Below are positions 2,500 to 11,857 of a DNA stretch of 64,000 bases, piece after piece. The notes beneath the pieces were generated by a model, which saw nothing but the letters and a program-made list of their open reading frames with translations, was not told where the DNA came from and ran no database searches. The first letter of the stretch is position 1, and every line of letters starts with the position of its first letter. Made by a program: the position numbers and the translations under genes. This stretch comes from an uncultured Candidatus Saccharibacteria bacterium. GTDB lineage: Bacteria; Patescibacteriota; Saccharimonadia; Saccharimonadales; HK-STAS-PATE-42. Location: positions 37,680 through 101,679 of the forward strand of contig CAYWUW010000003.1 in the NCBI GenBank assembly GCA_964461505.1. The letters are read 5' to 3'.

Positions 2500-3408
2500 T
2501 TAGGCTAAAGCTTTGCCTTCGGAGCCGAAAGCGCGGATTTTTTCTTCGATAACCTCTTGAGTTGCGTCGTTGACTTGTTCCATTAATTTCATTACAGAAA
2601 ATTCGGCCGGATTATCTGCGAGGGCTTTTTCTAAGGCTTGACGGTGCGCAATGCGCACATCGGTATTAATATTGATTTTGGAAACTCCGATTTTGGCGGC
2701 TTCTTCAAAATAGAAGAGTGGCGTTCCGGAACCTCCGTGCAGGCTAACGGAACATGGCAAAGCGTTGCAAACTTCTTGCAGTAAACTTAAGTTTAGTTGT
2801 TTTGGGGCTGGATATGAGCCGTGAAGGTTTCCAACAGAGGCGGCAAAGATGTCGATATCGGTGTCATGAACGAATTCTAGAGCCGTTTTGGGGTCTGAAA
2901 AGTTCTTTTTAACTTCTTCGTAATCAATTTGTTCATCGTGGAGGTTAGAGCTTCCGGCAAAATAATGCATCTCGCTTTCTACTATAGCGCCGGTAAACCG
3001 GGCGTATTCGGTAACTTGTTTGGTTTTTTGAATGATTTCTTCTAGCGGAGCGGAATGATCTTTTTGAGAAATATCAATATGAACAAACTCAAAGCCGATA
3101 TCGATAGCCTCTTTGGCAAGCTTGACAGAAGGGCCGTGATCTAAATTGAGATAAACTTCGACGCCATATTCATCTTTATAATTATCAACAAGATCGCGGG
3201 CGTTTTCTAGGCCAATGGAATCTGCCTCTGATTCGCTAAGATTAATTATAACTGGAGCCTTAAGCTTAGCGGCGGCTTTGATAATAGAAATGAGGATGTC
3301 TTGGGAATCGATGTTAAACGCCCCCACGGCAAATTTTTGTTGATGAGCGCGCAGCATTAGCTGTCTAGCTTTAGAGGTTGAAGCGCGAATTTGTTTTAGA
3401 CTAGCCAT
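2500..3408 (-). CDS. fba: Class II fructose-1,6-bisphosphate aldolase
   Basis: FAVGAFNI.., LNLDHG, SLHGGSG blocks typical of class II (FbaA/KbaY) aldolases. 302 aa. Confidence 0.85.
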   Translation of the reverse strand: MASLKQIRASTSKARQLMLRAHQQKFAVGAFNIDSQDILISIIKAAAKLKAPVIINLSESEADSIGLENARDLVDNYKDEYGVEVYLNLDHGPSVKLAKEAIDIGFEFVHIDISQKDHSAPLEEIIQKTKQVTEYARFTGAIVESEMHYFAGSSNLHDEQIDYEEVKKNFSDPKTALEFVHDTDIDIFAASVGNLHGSYPAPKQLNLSLLQEVCNALPCSVSLHGGSGTPLFYFEEAAKIGVSKININTDVRIAHRQALEKALADNPAEFSVMKLMEQVNDATQEVIEEKIRAFGSEGKALA

Positions 3409-3520: not shown

Positions 3521-3720
3521 TGCGTAGCATGGATTCTGCTCTGCAGCGGGATGACGGAGGCGGGAACTTAAATCCAATCTAAGATTTGTCATCTCGAGCC
3601 TGCCGAGAGATCTCTTGGATACAGTTAAATCTTAGAATTCATCTTAAGTCTTCTTATTCCTCCCCCAGGGGAGAGCCTGCCCCGCATTCATCGCGGGGTG
3701 GCCTGAAAGGCCTGAGGGGG
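3521..3720. repeat. Cluster of three different intergenic hairpin repeats
   Basis: Three elements: 3521-3560 tgcgtagcatggattc..gggatgacggagg (inverted homolog at 7998-8037); 3587-3619 gtcatctcgagcctgccgagagatctc; 3661-3720 C/G-rich CCCC..GGGG hairpins. Confidence 0.6.
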
Positions 3721-7769: not shown

Positions 7770-8037
7770 CTGTCATCCCCAGCCTGACTGGGGATCCAAT
7801 CAAAAAAGAATCCTTTATTTAATTAGATCCTGAAACAAGCACGTCATGGCGACATGCCATGGTTCGGGATGACAGAGTTGGTGGTTCGGGATGACAAAGA
7901 AAGATACGCTTACTGAAACCCAAGAGATCTCTCGTCAGGCTCGAGATGACAACTCTTAGGCTAGACTTAAGCTCCACTACTGTCATCCCCACTCCTTCCT
8001 CCGTCATCCCGGCGCAGGCCGGGATCCATGCTACGCA
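7770..8037. repeat. Cluster of GTCATCCC...GGGATCC hairpin repeats
   Basis: Four elements: 7770-7797 ctgtcatccccagcctgactggggatcc; 7861-7899 tandem ggttcgggatgaca x2; 7921-7953 gagatctctcgtcaggctcgagatgac; 7998-8037 ccgtcatcccggcgcaggccgggatccatgctacgca. Confidence 0.7.
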
Positions 8038-8569: not shown

Positions 8570-9310
8570 TTAAGCGACTTTTTTGAATATTCCTGCCTGA
8601 TATGAGAAGCTGCTACCTTGATGCTCAACATGACAATACCGTGTTTCTGCAAGGTTTAAACCTGCCTCTTCAAACGTTGATACAACTAGTTTTTCTATCG
8701 TAGACGAGCCTAGCTGAGGATTTATTTCTGTAGATAAATGAGAATCGTAAACTATTGGTATACCTAGAGGTGAGAGCCAGGCTTCACCGCCAGGAACCAA
8801 CACTCGAGAAACCTCTGATGCAGCCTGCTGGAGATCTTTTAGAATTAAGTTATCCGGAAGTGGTTTGCCTTTTACAACATGTTGCCCATGAAGAGCCTCC
8901 ACCCAAAGAAGGGGGAGACTCCAAGTTGAGATTACGGTATGGAAAGCTTCTTTTGTGAAGGGCAGTTTTTGCGCAATGCCTTTAACTTGAGCCCCATATC
9001 TTCCAAACGAAGTAGTGGGATCTAAGCTTACATAGTGGGCATCTGGAGCCAGAGCGCGGAGGTTCTGCTCGACATAACCGTTATGAGCACTACCTAAGTT
9101 GAGTATCCTTCCGCCAGATAATCTATTTCTGTACTCATCTATATCATGAACATTCCATATAAACCTACCGAAATCGGTAAAAAGAGACGCCCCTTTCGCT
9201 ACTCCCGCGCCAGTATTCTGAAAAACCAAATTCCTGCCATCCCCATATTGAGATACTGGTCTTACATTATTCATCTTGTTTATTATAGCATAAGATAGAT
9301 TGTTTTTCAA
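8570..9310 (-). CDS. Probable class I SAM-dependent methyltransferase
   Basis: GGRILNLGSA (motif I-like), LPFTKEAFHTVIS, LVPGGEA. Weak by-eye assignment. The start could be the ATG at 9274. Confidence 0.45.
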   Translation of the reverse strand: MKNNLSYAIINKMNNVRPVSQYGDGRNLVFQNTGAGVAKGASLFTDFGRFIWNVHDIDEYRNRLSGGRILNLGSAHNGYVEQNLRALAPDAHYVSLDPTTSFGRYGAQVKGIAQKLPFTKEAFHTVISTWSLPLLWVEALHGQHVVKGKPLPDNLILKDLQQAASEVSRVLVPGGEAWLSPLGIPIVYDSHLSTEINPQLGSSTIEKLVVSTFEEAGLNLAETRYCHVEHQGSSFSYQAGIFKKVA

Positions 9311-9873: not shown

Positions 9874-9944
9874 ATCTTGCAAGTAAGATCTTGGTTTTGA
9901 CAGTTCTGTGGGTGTGTTGCTCATAGCTAATCATTCTACTCTCT

Positions 9945-10366
9945 GTCATTCCCGCGAAGGCGGGAATCTTAGATTATATTCAACCTTAGTTTCTGCCACT
10001 GCTAATCGACTAGAGTTGGGTACAAATCTATCCATTTGGGGTTATCCTTGACGATAAGATTAATCTTCCATTGGCGATTCCATTTTTTGAGTCTCTTTTC
10101 TCGGAGTATTGCAGACTCTATGTCTGGATGCTCCTCAAAATAGACCAGCCTTTTTATGTGATAGAGTCTAGTGTGGCTTTTTATATTTTCGTGTTTATGT
10201 TGCCAAGTGCGCTTTATCAAATCTGAAGTGACACCGATATATATGGCGCCGTCAGTTTTTGTGGCAAAAATGTAGATATATGCGGCCATAACGGGTATTC
10301 TGGATTAGACTTAAATTATATTTTAACAGAACCCAAATCTAAGATTCCCGCCTTCGCGGGAATGAC
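9945..10366. mobile_element. GIY-YIG gene bracketed by perfect 31-bp inverted repeats (candidate miniature mobile unit)
   Basis: 9945-9975 gtcattcccgcgaaggcgggaatcttagatt is the exact reverse complement of 10336-10366. Confidence 0.45.
10002..10289 (-). CDS. GIY-YIG nuclease family protein (small URI-domain type)
   Basis: YIYIFATKTDGAIYIGVTSDLIKRTWQHK...REKRLKKWNRQWK. 95 aa. Confidence 0.85.
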   Translation of the reverse strand: MAAYIYIFATKTDGAIYIGVTSDLIKRTWQHKHENIKSHTRLYHIKRLVYFEEHPDIESAILREKRLKKWNRQWKINLIVKDNPKWIDLYPTLVD

Positions 10367-10481
10367 GGAACTAAAGTTAAACTTAACATCCGCCAAACAG
10401 AGCCACACTTGGCGACGAGTCGCTATACCCCCCAAAAAAATGGAGAGGCGGCGGAGACCCTTATGGATTTAAAAAAGAGCT

Positions 10482-11474
10482 TTAGTTTTTTTCGAGCTTG
10501 ATTCCTGGGCCCATGGTTGGGGCAAGAGTTAAGCTTAAGATGTATTCGCCTTTGATGCTAGCCGGCTTGGCCTCGCGAACGGCTTTAAGAACTGTTTCGA
10601 TATTTTCAAGCAGTTCAGTAGGCTTAAAATCTAATTTACCGACTCCAAGGTGGATGATGCCTTGCTTATCTACACGATATTCAACTTTTCCGGATTTGGC
10701 TTCGGAAACTGCTTTGGCAATATCGGCAGAAACGGTTCCAACTTTAGGGTTTGGCATTAAGCCTTTTGGGCCAAGCAAGCGGGCATATTTGCTAAGCTTA
10801 ACCATGTTTTGTGGAGTTGAGATGAGAACGTCAAAATCTATAACCTCTTTTTCAAGTTGTTCTAAGAATGTTTCATCGCCGAAGATGTCGGCTCCGGCTT
10901 TTTTGGCAACTTCGTGTTGATCTGCTGGAGCAAAAACTGCTACTACCAATGTTTTGCCAGTTCCATACGGTAAAGAAACGGTTCCACGAAGGTTTTGATC
11001 GGCATGTTTTGGGTCTACTCCAAGCTTAATATGGAGTTCGGCACTCCCGGTAAACTTGGCGGTATTAAGCTTAGGCAAAAGTTCTACGGCTTCTTGCAAA
11101 GTGTAGAGTTTATCTTTTTGAATAAGTTCGTTGGCTTTTTTATAAGATTTTGAACGGCGCTCTAGTTTGGATCTAGTAATTGGTTTGGGGCCTTTTTTGA
11201 TAACTTCTTCAACCTCGCCAGAAGCAATTTTTTCTTTGCGTTCTTCTTTTGCGGCTTTGTCATCGGCTTCTTTTAGAGCTTTTGCAGATCTTTTGCCTGC
11301 TTTGGCGAGAGGTTTTTCTTCCCTAATTTCATCCTGATAATCCTCATCGGCAGCCTCGGAAGCTGTTTTTTGAGCATCTTCGATTGCATCTTCAAGTTCT
11401 GCAATTGTGTTTGCTTCGGTTAATGCAAGGCCGAGCTGAACGGCCTGTTCTAATAATTCGGCTTTTTTTGCCAT
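10482..11474 (-). CDS. rplA: 50S ribosomal protein L1 with an approximately 100-aa acidic/basic N-terminal extension
   Basis: The C-terminal approximately 230 aa is canonical L1 (FTGSAELHIKLGVDPK..DQNLRG..LPYGTGK). The N-terminal 100 aa is extra. Confidence 0.9.
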   Translation of the reverse strand: MAKKAELLEQAVQLGLALTEANTIAELEDAIEDAQKTASEAADEDYQDEIREEKPLAKAGKRSAKALKEADDKAAKEERKEKIASGEVEEVIKKGPKPITRSKLERRSKSYKKANELIQKDKLYTLQEAVELLPKLNTAKFTGSAELHIKLGVDPKHADQNLRGTVSLPYGTGKTLVVAVFAPADQHEVAKKAGADIFGDETFLEQLEKEVIDFDVLISTPQNMVKLSKYARLLGPKGLMPNPKVGTVSADIAKAVSEAKSGKVEYRVDKQGIIHLGVGKLDFKPTELLENIETVLKAVREAKPASIKGEYILSLTLAPTMGPGIKLEKN

Positions 11475-11638: not shown

Positions 11639-11685
11639 GCTCTGTCATCCTGAGGAACGAGCGTAGCGAGTGACGTGAGGATCTA
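11639..11685. repeat. Hairpin repeat, GTCATCCTGAG...GAGGATC family
   Basis: ctctgtcatcctgaggaacgagcgtagcgagtgacgtgaggatct. Confidence 0.6.
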
Positions 11686-11857
11686 GTAATAAGGAATTCT
11701 TTTTTTTGATTGGATCCCCGCAACAAGTGTGGGACAGGCCTTCACATACGTTCAGAATGACAGTGTCGTGAACTTAAGCTTAGTCCAAAAATCGCGGGTT
11801 CCCTGAAATATTCGATTAGAATATTATCAGGGATCTACATCTTTATTAAATTTAAGC

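What the first reader, a model, noticed from the sequence alone, without database searches (positions are those of the whole stretch)
9945..10366. GIY-YIG nuclease gene framed by perfect 31-bp inverted hairpin repeats, resembling a REPtron with a GIY-YIG enzyme
**Observation.** 9945-9975 (gtcattcccgcgaaggcgggaatcttagatt) is the exact reverse complement of 10336-10366. The two copies bracket a 95-aa GIY-YIG (URI-domain) gene in a 422-bp unit.

**Link to the dispersed repeats.** Each arm is itself a hairpin (attcccgc-gaa-gcgggaat). Each starts with the CTGTCATYCC head shared by the dozens of hairpin repeats scattered through the intergenic regions of this window.

**Analogy.** This layout parallels REPtrons, where a RAYT transposase gene sits between inverted REP sequences that it is thought to mobilise. 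Here the enzyme would be a small GIY-YIG nuclease. I am not aware of an established link between this nuclease family and REP-like repeat spread.

**Caveat.** No target-site duplication is visible outside the arms.
Basis: partly seen in the sequence, partly recalled or inferred. Interest (0 to 1): 0.68.

Follow-up and report, generated by a model that had tools for sequence, protein, structure and literature searches.

The report
Ssn hairpin-cutting nuclease cassette, already described

Summary
Arms 9942-9975 and 10336-10369 are a 34-nt inverted repeat (31 nt exact). Each arm is a stable hairpin. Together they bracket a 95-aa single-domain GIY-YIG gene (10002-10289, minus strand).

The claim of "dozens" of related hairpins does not hold: about ten lie in the window, all between 3.5 and 11.7 kb.

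The gene-hairpin link is general. In 76 homologous loci from more than ten phyla, 45 have correctly oriented YGTCAT-hairpin-CCAG motifs on both sides (control: 5 of 533).

This is the published Ssn/SRM system (Chenal et al. 2025, PMC11893778). Neisseria SsnA binds this hairpin only as ssDNA, cuts just 5' of it and restricts transformation. That paper already notes the IS-like and RAYT/REP-like layout. The window protein is 49% identical to the N. gonorrhoeae orthologue and keeps Y6, Y17 and E64.

New here:
- The host is a Saccharibacteria-like CPR bacterium.
- The cassette sits in a hypervariable lexA-rplA spot that is empty, or filled with other genes, in relatives, and it is inverted in one relative.
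- The gene is under purifying selection and the arms evolve in concert.
- No target-site duplication or multi-copy spread was found.

Mobilisation by Ssn remains unproven.

The parts
9942..9975 (+). Left arm. SRM/NTS-like hairpin read 5'->3' on the + strand: TCTGTCATTCCCGCGAAGGCGGGAATCTTAGATT. Stem 9948-9955 / 9960-9967, loop GAAG. It lies 26 nt beyond the ssn stop codon.
   Evidence: Matches the NTS consensus CGTCATTCCCGCGMAVGCGGGAATCYRG with 1 substitution and 1 inserted T. Matches the relaxed SRM pattern.
9976..10001 (-). 26-nt spacer between the ssn stop codon and the left arm.
   Evidence: In 76 homologous loci the median distance from stop codon to hairpin is 10 nt.
10002..10289 (-). ssn gene: a 95-aa single-domain GIY-YIG nuclease of the Ssn (cd10448-type) family.
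   Evidence: - ORF.
- Pfam PF01541, E = 1e-14.
- 49% identity, ungapped over 90 aa, E = 7e-33 to the N. gonorrhoeae SsnA orthologue.
- Y6, Y17 and E64 invariant.
- AF2 model pLDDT 89 with GIY-YIG structures as best PDB matches.
- Purifying selection.
10290..10335 (-). 46-nt leader between the right arm and the ATG. It contains a TATAAT hexamer (10320-10315 on the minus strand). Promoter function is not established.
   Evidence: The consensus promoter scan did not call a promoter here. The median hairpin-to-ATG distance in homologues is 29 nt.
10336..10369 (-). Right arm. SRM/NTS-like hairpin read 5'->3' on the minus strand: TCCGTCATTCCCGCGAAGGCGGGAATCTTAGATT.
   Evidence: Two substitutions (or one inserted T) relative to the NTS consensus.
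7771..7799 (+). Dispersed SRM-like hairpin TGTCATCCCCAGCCTGACTGGGGATCCAA. The stem differs from the ssn arms by compensatory changes; the tail is the canonical ATCCA.
7826..7874 (-). Degenerate SRM-like element with a 28-nt insertion in the loop. With 7771-7799 it forms a heads-out pair.
7862..7900 (-). Two tandem 'head-only' half motifs (TGTCATCCCGAAC, twice).
7926..7950 (-). SRM-like variant GTCATCTCGAGCCTGACGAGAGATC.
7980..8029 (+). A head-only fragment (CTGTCATCCCCAC...) followed by a full SRM, CGTCATCCCGGCGCAGGCCGGGATCCAT. The full SRM is a strict match to the published SRM pattern.
3529..3556 (-). Decayed SRM, CGTCATCCCGCTGCAGAGCAGAATCCAT. It matches the strict pattern but no longer forms a stable hairpin.
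   Evidence: z = -0.2.
3588..3612 (+). SRM-like variant GTCATCTCGAGCCTGCCGAGAGATC, preceded by AATCTAAGATT, the same tail as in the ssn arms.
11643..11686 (+). Weak SRM-like element beyond rplA: a TGTCATCC head and a GGATCTAG tail. It does not form a stable hairpin.
   Evidence: (z = +1.2).

Best explanation
The 422-428-bp unit is an SRM-ssn-SRM module: a member of the published Ssn family of single-domain GIY-YIG nucleases, flanked by two copies of its cognate hairpin motif with the heads facing outwards.

Shown for the Neisseria and Wolbachia homologues, and inferred here: the 95-aa protein recognises the motif only when the DNA is single-stranded. The motif is a Y-GTCAT head, an 8-bp stem and the C just after the stem. 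The protein cuts that strand a few nucleotides 5' of the head. The complementary strand, dsDNA and RNA are not substrates.

Because the two arms are inverted, each strand of the unit carries one cleavable site at its own 5' border, at roughly 9940 on the + strand and 10371 on the minus strand.

Inferred role in the cell: the enzyme cuts motif-bearing ssDNA, such as incoming transforming strands or replication and recombination intermediates. That trims the homology available for recombination and makes motif-rich intergenic spots recombinogenic.

Shown here: the module behaves as a horizontally acquired, single-copy cassette in a hypervariable lexA-rplA spot of a Saccharibacteria-like CPR genome. 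Since acquisition it has been inherited vertically under purifying selection. Its two arms are kept identical by selection and by arm-to-arm recombination, which also explains the inversion seen in one relative.
For: Family membership
- Pfam GIY-YIG, E = 1e-14, single domain, 95 aa.
- 49% identity without gaps over 90 aa, E = 7e-33, to the 94-aa N. gonorrhoeae SsnA orthologue, which itself sits among NTS repeats.
- Y6, Y17 and E64, the residues whose mutation kills Nm SsnA, are invariant in 27 homologues.
- The AF2 model has pLDDT 89 and its best PDB matches are GIY-YIG proteins.
- The arms match the NTS consensus apart from one inserted T, or two substitutions.

Generality of the pairing
- Of 76 homologous loci from more than ten phyla, including CPR, 45 have correctly oriented hairpins within 120 nt on both sides and 68 on at least one side.
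- At shifted control positions only 5 of 533 have both.
- In 118 arms, position -1 is Y in 112, and after the stem +1 is C in 103 and +2 is A in 112.

Function of the arms
- Between the window and L085 synonymous sites are saturated (pS 0.76), yet the arms differ at only 2 positions. Both arms of a genome carry the same variant.

Selection on the gene
- pN is 0.13-0.20 against pS of 0.76-0.93; dN/dS between L085 and L089 is 0.14.

Cassette behaviour at the lexA-rplA spot
- Holds the unit in the window and in L089-L093.
- Holds the unit inverted in L085.
- Holds unrelated ORFs of 263 aa and 287 aa in L135-L137.
- Holds nothing in L094 and L095.

Biochemistry and role in transformation come from PMC11893778. 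Saccharibacteria are naturally competent (PMC10633639).
Against: - No biochemistry exists for this protein or for any CPR homologue.
- The arms carry a minority tail, ATCTTAG instead of ATCCAG. They fail the last positions of the published strict SRM pattern.
- Whether the roughly eight other hairpins in the window are substrates is unknown. They have different stems and ATCCA tails; Nm SsnA lost activity when the stem sequence was changed with the structure kept.
- I compared with the N. gonorrhoeae orthologue, not with the N. meningitidis protein CAX49033.1 itself.
- The CDD assignment to cd10448 could not be run.
- The direction of the presence/absence difference (gain or loss) is not polarised by an outgroup.
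- A role in transformation is an extrapolation from Neisseria.
Confidence: 0.8

Rival explanations
1. REPtron-like autonomous mobile element. SRM-ssn-SRM transposes or 'homes', and Ssn cleavage is what multiplies the hairpins. Single hairpins and gene-less heads-out doublets would be its non-autonomous, REPIN/MITE-like derivatives.
For: - The IS-like layout is conserved across phyla.
- The unit is compact: median 379 bp, range 350-522.
- It is present, absent or inverted at one locus in relatives.
- About 50 related Rhizobium plasmids share the neighbouring prc gene, but the ssn unit of pRheCIAT894e did not match in them at megablast sensitivity.
- Protein similarity does not follow taxonomy: 55-65% identity between CPR, Proteobacteria and Cyanobacteria.
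- Adjacent gene-less hairpin pairs favour heads-out: 46, against 22 heads-in and 9 tandem.
- Two 98.6%-identical copies occur in one Desulfacyla MAG.
- 81% of genomes with more than 200 motifs have ssn (PMC11893778).
- Lack of a target-site duplication is also typical of ssDNA transposons (established knowledge of IS200/IS605).
Against: - GIY-YIG nucleases hydrolyse DNA and form no covalent 5'-phosphotyrosine intermediate, so they cannot rejoin strands as HUH/Y1 enzymes do (established knowledge).
- The two cleavable sites lie on opposite strands, unlike the left and right ends of IS200/IS605.
- There is one copy in the window. The locus is the same in relatives with saturated synonymous sites and strong purifying selection.
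- Identical proteins seen on many contigs are the same locus in many samples.
- In the only recent intragenomic duplication found, homology ends about 65 nt outside the hairpins, at a separate 20-23-bp terminal inverted repeat.
- Only about ten motifs occur in 64 kb.
- No empty site close enough in sequence to show exact borders was found.
Confidence: 0.2
2. Classical free-standing GIY-YIG homing endonuclease gene. Its double-strand cut at an intact target is repaired by copying the gene in, and the hairpins are the two halves of the former target.
For: - Weak PHROG and TIGR matches to homing and group I intron endonucleases.
- Presence/absence at one locus.
Against: - The protein has no DNA-binding domain; it is 95 aa with a single domain.
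- Characterised family members do not cut dsDNA.
- Each arm is a complete hairpin rather than a half site.
- The empty sites in L094 and L095 contain no hairpin or target-like sequence.
- The gene is not in an intron, an intein or a phage.
Confidence: 0.04
3. The hairpins are ordinary transcription terminators or regulatory palindromes, unrelated to the nuclease, and merely happen to flank a small housekeeping UPF0213/YhbQ-like gene.
For: - The consensus scan lists the right arm as terminator-like.
- In homologues the downstream hairpin lies a median of 10 nt after the stop codon.
Against: - The non-palindromic flanks (YGTCAT and C-CAG) and a fixed orientation rule are conserved at the DNA level across phyla.
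- There is also a hairpin upstream of the gene.
- There is no proper T-run.
- Similarity to UPF0213 is marginal: E = 0.009 by sequence, TM 0.59 by structure.
- Published direct binding and cleavage data exist for the family.
Confidence: 0.03

Closest known systems
Ssn family / SsnA-NTS (SRM) system of Neisseria meningitidis and other bacteria (Chenal et al. 2025, Nat Commun 16:2388, PMC11893778)
   Same: - A single-domain GIY-YIG protein of about 95 aa with Y6, Y17 and E64.
- 49% identity to the gonococcal orthologue.
- The hairpin motif is YGTCATTCCCGCG-loop-GCGGGAATC.
- The motif-gene-motif layout.
- Motifs confined to intergenic DNA.
   Different: - The host is a Saccharibacteria-like CPR bacterium with few motifs, about ten in 64 kb, against hundreds per Neisseria genome.
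- The tail is ATCTTAG rather than ATCYRG.
- The arms are a perfect heads-out inverted pair. In N. gonorrhoeae the motif downstream of ssnA has the same orientation as the gene rather than being inverted.
- No biochemistry or genetics exists for this member.
REPtrons / RAYT-REP-REPIN systems (IS200/IS605-related Y1 HUH transposases with repetitive extragenic palindromes)
   Same: - A single-copy enzyme gene flanked by inverted hairpin repeats.
- Dispersed singlets and inverted doublets of the same hairpin in intergenic DNA.
- A conserved short head 5' of the hairpin gives it polarity.
- Recognition of ssDNA hairpins.
- No target-site duplication.
   Different: - The enzyme is a hydrolytic GIY-YIG nuclease, not an HUH/Y1 transposase.
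- The head is YGTCAT, not GTAG.
- Strand rejoining has no known catalyst here.
- Mobilisation has not been demonstrated.
Neisseria dRS3 repeats and intergenic mosaic elements (NIMEs)
   Same: The core ATTCCC-N8-GGGAAT is present in both arms. The mosaic intergenic clusters at 7.6-8.03 kb, with full, partial and head-only copies, resemble NIMEs.
   Different: A different phylum. The filamentous-phage integration described for dRS3 is not seen here.
UPF0213 / YhbQ-type small GIY-YIG proteins (PDB 1zg2, BH0048)
   Same: A stand-alone GIY-YIG domain of about 100 aa. It is the best structural match (TM 0.59).
   Different: Sequence similarity is only marginal (E = 0.009). In my reading and searches I found no report of a hairpin association for that family.

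Membership tests
[quoted passage not shown] | Single-domain GIY-YIG protein of about 94-100 aa with no extra DNA-binding domain | tested here: met
   95 aa. Pfam GIY-YIG covers residues 3-77. The AF2 model is one compact domain with pLDDT 89. Best PDB matches are GIY-YIG domains.
[quoted passage not shown] | Homology to Neisseria SsnA at the paper's criterion (E < 1e-10 over more than 75% of the length) | tested here: met
   tblastn E = 1e-22 with 95% coverage. BLASTP gives 49% identity over 90 ungapped aa, E = 7e-33, against the 94-aa N. gonorrhoeae ORF (L116 1501-1785). The N. meningitidis sequence CAX49033.1 itself was not available.
[quoted passage not shown] | Catalytic Tyr6 and Tyr17 and metal-binding Glu64 (mutants inactive in Nm SsnA) | tested here: met
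   Y6, Y17 and E64 are invariant in alignment A1 and align with the gonococcal protein.
[quoted passage not shown] | Gene flanked by Ssn-related hairpin motifs (NTS/SRM) | tested here: met
   Both arms match the NTS consensus apart from one inserted T, or two substitutions. Both match the SRM pattern without its last three positions. The strict SRM pattern is not matched because of the ATCTTA tail.
[quoted passage not shown] | Best CDD hit is cd10448 | not testable with these tools
   No CDD library was available. Pfam and NCBIfam have no subfamily model for it.
[quoted passage not shown] | Strand-specific binding of the hairpin as ssDNA, with cleavage a few nt 5' of it and no activity on dsDNA or RNA | not testable with these tools
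   This needs purified protein. It has been shown only for the Nm, N. elongata, N. wadsworthii and Wolbachia proteins.
REPtron (RAYT gene flanked by REPs) | Enzyme is an HUH/Y1 (IS200/IS605-like) transposase | tested here: not met
   The only Pfam families hit are GIY-YIG and T5orf172.
REPtron (RAYT gene flanked by REPs) | Gene bracketed by inverted copies of the genome's dispersed hairpin repeat | tested here: met
   This is a match of architecture only.
REPtron (RAYT gene flanked by REPs) | Conserved GTAG tetranucleotide at the 5' foot of the hairpin | tested here: not met
   The head is YGTCAT in 118 arms.
Insertion sequence with terminal inverted repeats | Target-site duplication and several copies per genome | tested here: not met
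   A duplication of 3 nt or more occurs in 1 of 47 units, the same rate as in permuted flanks. One copy in the window. Whole-genome copy number is not visible from a 64-kb window.
GIY-YIG homing endonucleases (I-TevI type) | N-terminal GIY-YIG domain plus a linker and a C-terminal DNA-binding domain; located in an intron or a phage | tested here: not met
   95 aa and a single domain. TIGR01453 scores 18 bits against a cut-off of 56. The neighbours are chromosomal genes, lexA-like and rplA.
   The solved UPF0213 protein BH0048 matches only at E = 0.009 and 19 bits; by structure 30% identity and TM 0.59. No COG library was available.

The most novel reading that the evidence does not exclude
SRM-ssn-SRM is, or recently was, an autonomous mobile cassette that moves without a transposase. 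A purely hydrolytic ssDNA-hairpin nuclease would make strand-specific nicks at the outer foot of each arm. Host replication-restart or recombination, or natural transformation with recombination in conserved flanking genes, would then copy the unit and its gene-less heads-out doublets into new intergenic sites.

That would make it a GIY-YIG analogue of the RAYT/REPIN system, and a third chemistry for hairpin-repeat spread in bacteria.

The hypervariable lexA-rplA spot, the inversion, the concerted evolution of the arms, the head-only tandem arrays next to full hairpins and the excess of heads-out doublets would all be footprints of this process.
Probability: 0.2. Interest if true: 0.75.

Novelty: new member of a known kind. 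Interest (0 to 1): 0.3.

Why it matters
The gene-hairpin pairing is real but published, so its discovery value is low.

What remains open, here and in the literature, is whether Ssn nucleases only police single-stranded DNA or also generate and spread the hairpin repeats. That second role would explain the origin of dRS3/NIME-type repeats in many bacteria.

This CPR locus adds three things:
- A natural series of filled, inverted, differently filled and empty alleles of one intergenic spot.
- Evidence that the arms are kept identical while the gene drifts at synonymous sites.
- An Ssn member in a lineage shown elsewhere to be naturally competent.

A further Ssn/hairpin pair with a variant tail (ATCTTAG) could also serve as an additional ssDNA-cutting specificity.

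Tried and rejected
- **Exact look-up of the window protein's contig** found nothing, and cluster look-up gave no names. The organism was placed through L1 homologues instead.
- **Rfam** found no RNA family at the hairpins, only three tRNAs in the window.
- **PADLOC** gave no defence-system match.
- **PDB sequence search** found no solved Ssn. The top hit, a WD40 protein, is a repeat artefact.
- **Identical proteins on many contigs** (P0078, P0052, P0066) were checked as a sign of recent transposition. All turned out to be one locus sampled many times, or variable-number-repeat and assembly variants of it.
- **The Desulfacyla pair** is a real intragenomic duplication, but its borders lie outside the hairpins, so it does not show Ssn-driven movement.
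- **Rhizobium plasmids** show presence/absence of the unit next to prc, but at about 84% identity the borders cannot be placed.
- **Target-site duplications and extension of the inverted repeat** beyond the heads: none beyond the conserved Y at position -1.
- **Protein clade against stem type:** a small but significant excess similarity (58.6% against 55.6%, permutation p about 0.001). It is confounded by phylogeny, so it is weak evidence only.
- **A promoter inside the unit:** a TATAAT hexamer is present, but the scan does not call a promoter.
- **Supplementary files of the paper** are not held, so the Nm SsnA sequence and the genome lists could not be used.
Full report
**1. The observation**

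The sequence is as described. Bases 9945-9975 are the exact reverse complement of 10336-10366. The repeat extends to 34 nt with one mismatch (9942-9975 / 10336-10369). The 23-nt core occurs exactly twice in the window and never in 100 shuffles. Each arm folds as single-stranded DNA into an 8-bp stem with a 4-nt loop (-8.9 kcal/mol, z = -4.3 and -3.3). The two arms can alternatively pair with each other over 34 bp.

Between them lies one ORF, 10002-10289 on the minus strand, 95 aa, matching Pfam GIY-YIG at E = 1e-14. No second copy of the gene is in the window.

The statement that the CTGTCATYCC head is shared by "dozens" of hairpins in the window is not borne out.
- That pattern has 5 matches and GTCATYCC has 10.
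- The published motif pattern has 2 strict and 4 relaxed matches, against 0.1 and 0.4 in random sequence.
- Inspection gives about ten full, decayed or head-only elements. All lie in four intergenic spots between 3.5 and 11.7 kb.

**2. The pairing is general**

The protein has hundreds of close relatives (55-76% identity) in very different bacteria. I fetched 80 loci from one-genome-per-species contigs. They cover Alpha-, Beta-, Gamma- and Deltaproteobacteria, Cyanobacteria, Planctomycetota, Bacteroidota, Chloroflexota, Omnitrophota, Ignavibacteriota and several CPR groups.

Printing the flanks shows the same picture almost everywhere: GTCAT-stem-loop-stem-ATCCAG shortly before the start codon, and its reverse complement just after the stop codon.

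Quantified with a simple hairpin detector:

| Measure | Result |
|---|---|
| Loci with correctly oriented hairpins within 120 nt on both sides | 45 of 76 |
| Loci with a hairpin on at least one side | 68 of 76 |
| Shifted control positions with both | 5 of 533 |
| Median unit length | 379 bp |
| Arms with Y at position -1 | 112 of 118 |
| Arms with C at +1 after the stem | 103 of 118 |
| Arms with A at +2 | 112 of 118 |

Stems vary by compensatory changes. Some annotated homologues have C-terminal tails such as RLRGNDR. These are simply translations of the hairpin.

**3. It is already described**

A literature search found Chenal et al. 2025 (Nat Commun 16:2388, PMC11893778). Its main points:
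- It defines the Ssn family: single-domain GIY-YIG proteins of CDD family cd10448.
- N. meningitidis SsnA (94 aa) binds the hairpin repeat NTS, CGTCATTCCCGCGMAVGCGGGAATCYRG, which contains dRS3.
- Binding occurs only on single-stranded DNA. The protein cuts a few nucleotides upstream of the motif.
- The complementary strand, dsDNA and RNA are not cut.
- Y6A, Y17A and E64A abolish cleavage.
- 71% of homologous genes have at least one Ssn-related motif nearby and 42% have one on both sides.
- 81% of genomes with more than 200 motifs encode Ssn.
- In Neisseria the enzyme lowers transformation by NTS-bearing DNA.

The discussion states that NTS-ssnA-NTS looks like an insertion sequence. It compares it with IS200/IS605 and with RAYT/REP/BIME, and proposes domestication and repeat expansion. 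It is the only paper in the searchable library on SsnA or cd10448.

**4. Membership**

Two N. gonorrhoeae chromosomes mislabelled as plasmids gave me the gonococcal orthologue, a 94-aa ORF among NTS repeats. The window protein is 49% identical to it over 90 ungapped residues (E = 7e-33), with Y6, Y17 and E64 aligned. These residues are invariant in 27 homologues.

An AlphaFold model (pLDDT 89) is a single compact domain. Its best PDB matches are GIY-YIG proteins: UPF0213 BH0048, Slx1 and UvrC-N. No Ssn structure has been solved.

The arms equal the NTS consensus apart from one inserted T, or two substitutions. The ATCTTAG tail is a minority variant. It is shared by the closest homologues I looked at (L085, L089; GTCTTAA/GTCTTGT in L086) and also by L013.

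I could not run CDD and there is no biochemistry for this member.

**5. What the locus adds**

L1 homologues place the window in Patescibacteria (CPR), near Saccharibacteria. The same lexA-like/rplA intergenic spot exists in relatives in several states:

| Relative | Similarity to the window | Content of the lexA-rplA spot |
|---|---|---|
| L089-L093 | LexA 90%, Ssn 70% | The unit in the same orientation; the arm after the stop codon is a different hairpin type |
| L085 | L1 83%, Ssn 76% | The unit inverted relative to rplA, with an unrelated neighbour on the other side |
| L135, L136 | L1 80% | An unrelated 263-aa ORF |
| L137 | L1 77% | An unrelated 287-aa ORF |
| L094, L095 | L1 67-71% | Nothing: spacers of about 97 and 50 nt with no hairpin |

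So the unit is one of several alternative cargos of a hypervariable spot. Whether it was gained or lost is not polarised.

Among the three filled genomes synonymous sites are saturated (pS 0.67-0.93) while pN is 0.13-0.20, and dN/dS between L085 and L089 is 0.14. The gene is therefore maintained by selection. Over the same divergence the arms changed at only two positions, and both arms of a genome carry the same variant. That indicates selection on the DNA motif plus arm-to-arm homogenisation. The inversion in L085 fits recombination between the arms.

**6. Is it mobile?**

For mobility:
- The layout is conserved and the cassette is present or absent at one locus.
- Its taxonomic distribution is patchy.
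- Gene-less adjacent hairpin pairs favour heads-out (46, against 22 heads-in and 9 tandem).
- About 50 related Rhizobium plasmids share the neighbouring prc gene, but the ssn unit of pRheCIAT894e did not match in them at megablast sensitivity.
- One MAG holds two 98.6%-identical copies.

Against mobility:
- No target-site duplication.
- A single copy and long vertical inheritance.
- Proteins seen on many contigs are one locus in many samples.
- In the one recent duplication, homology ends about 65 nt outside the hairpins, at a separate 20-23-bp terminal inverted repeat.
- GIY-YIG chemistry cannot rejoin strands (established knowledge).
- The two cleavable sites are on opposite strands.

I rate active Ssn-driven mobilisation at about 0.2.

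**7. Most likely mechanism**

Shown by homology only: the protein binds each arm when that strand is single-stranded and nicks a few nucleotides 5' of YGTCAT, at about 9940 on the + strand and about 10371 on the minus strand.

Inferred: in a naturally competent CPR lineage (PMC10633639) it trims motif-bearing incoming or replicative ssDNA. That modulates recombination and makes motif-rich spacers recombinogenic. The cassette itself was probably acquired by recombination in the conserved flanking genes.

**8. Verdict**

The feature is real, and it is a new CPR member of a known and recently published system. The mobilisation hypothesis remains open.

Noticed in passing
window 758-43336 (101 copies) and 53328 (1 copy): - The palindrome TAAGCTTA (consensus YTAAGCTTAR) is the commonest 8-mer in the window: 102 copies against 1.7 expected from base composition. 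TTAAGCTTAA has 33 against 0.1.
- About two thirds of the copies lie inside ORFs. Density is about one per 420 bp up to 43.3 kb.
- It is practically absent from 43.4-64 kb, which may be foreign DNA or a mis-join.
- Among relatives it is denser in L085, L089 and L137 than in L094, L095 and L135.
- It looks like a DNA-uptake-sequence-like or restriction-modification-related signature. No paper linking Saccharibacteria and uptake sequences was found.
   Followed up: partly
window 9874-10481; L085, L089-L095, L135-L137: The lexA-like/rplA spacer is a hypervariable spot in this CPR lineage. It holds the ssn unit, the unit inverted, two unrelated ORFs without Pfam hits (263 aa and 287 aa), or nothing. 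The methyltransferase-like gene between ruvC and lexA (window 8570-9310) is also missing in L094 and L095.
   Followed up: partly
window 7862-7900 and 7980-8001; L063, L072, L125-L129: Tandem arrays of 'head-only' half motifs (GTCATYCCSNN... without the return strand) sit next to full hairpins. In L125-L129 their number varies between samples, like a variable-number tandem repeat. This may be a footprint of repeated cutting and repair, or of slippage at the hairpin.
   Followed up: partly
L035 2853-3369 and L056 2853-3369 (Candidatus Desulfacyla euxinica, two contigs of one MAG): Two 98.6%-identical copies of an ssn unit are nested in a 517-bp element bounded by a separate 20-23-bp terminal inverted repeat, GGAGCATTACCAGTTTGTTAAAG. 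No clear target-site duplication is visible. The ssn module may be riding inside another miniature element.
   Followed up: partly
window 10482-11474 (minus strand): Ribosomal protein L1 is 330 aa. The Pfam L1 domain covers only residues 135-323. The Lys/Glu/Ala-rich N-terminal extension of about 130 aa is kept in relatives, which are 313-356 aa long.
   Followed up: no
L116 (NZ_CP119140.1) and NZ_CP119142.1 in the plasmid collection: Two records of about 2.17 Mb labelled as N. gonorrhoeae plasmids are evidently chromosomes. They were useful here as a source of the gonococcal ssnA locus.
   Followed up: no
L010, L017, L031 (Burkholderiales), about 2900-3400: By eye, the ssn unit sits between what look like the end of sucC and the start of sucD (MSILINKDTKV...) in three different families. 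Either the insertion is old or the site is preferred. The gene identities were not checked with a tool.
   Followed up: no
P0002, P0045, P0068, P0070 (alignment A1): Database proteins of this family carry N- or C-terminal tails such as HNLRFPPARE and SRLRGNDRMS. These are read-through translations of the flanking hairpin, an annotation artefact that could be used to find such units.
   Followed up: no
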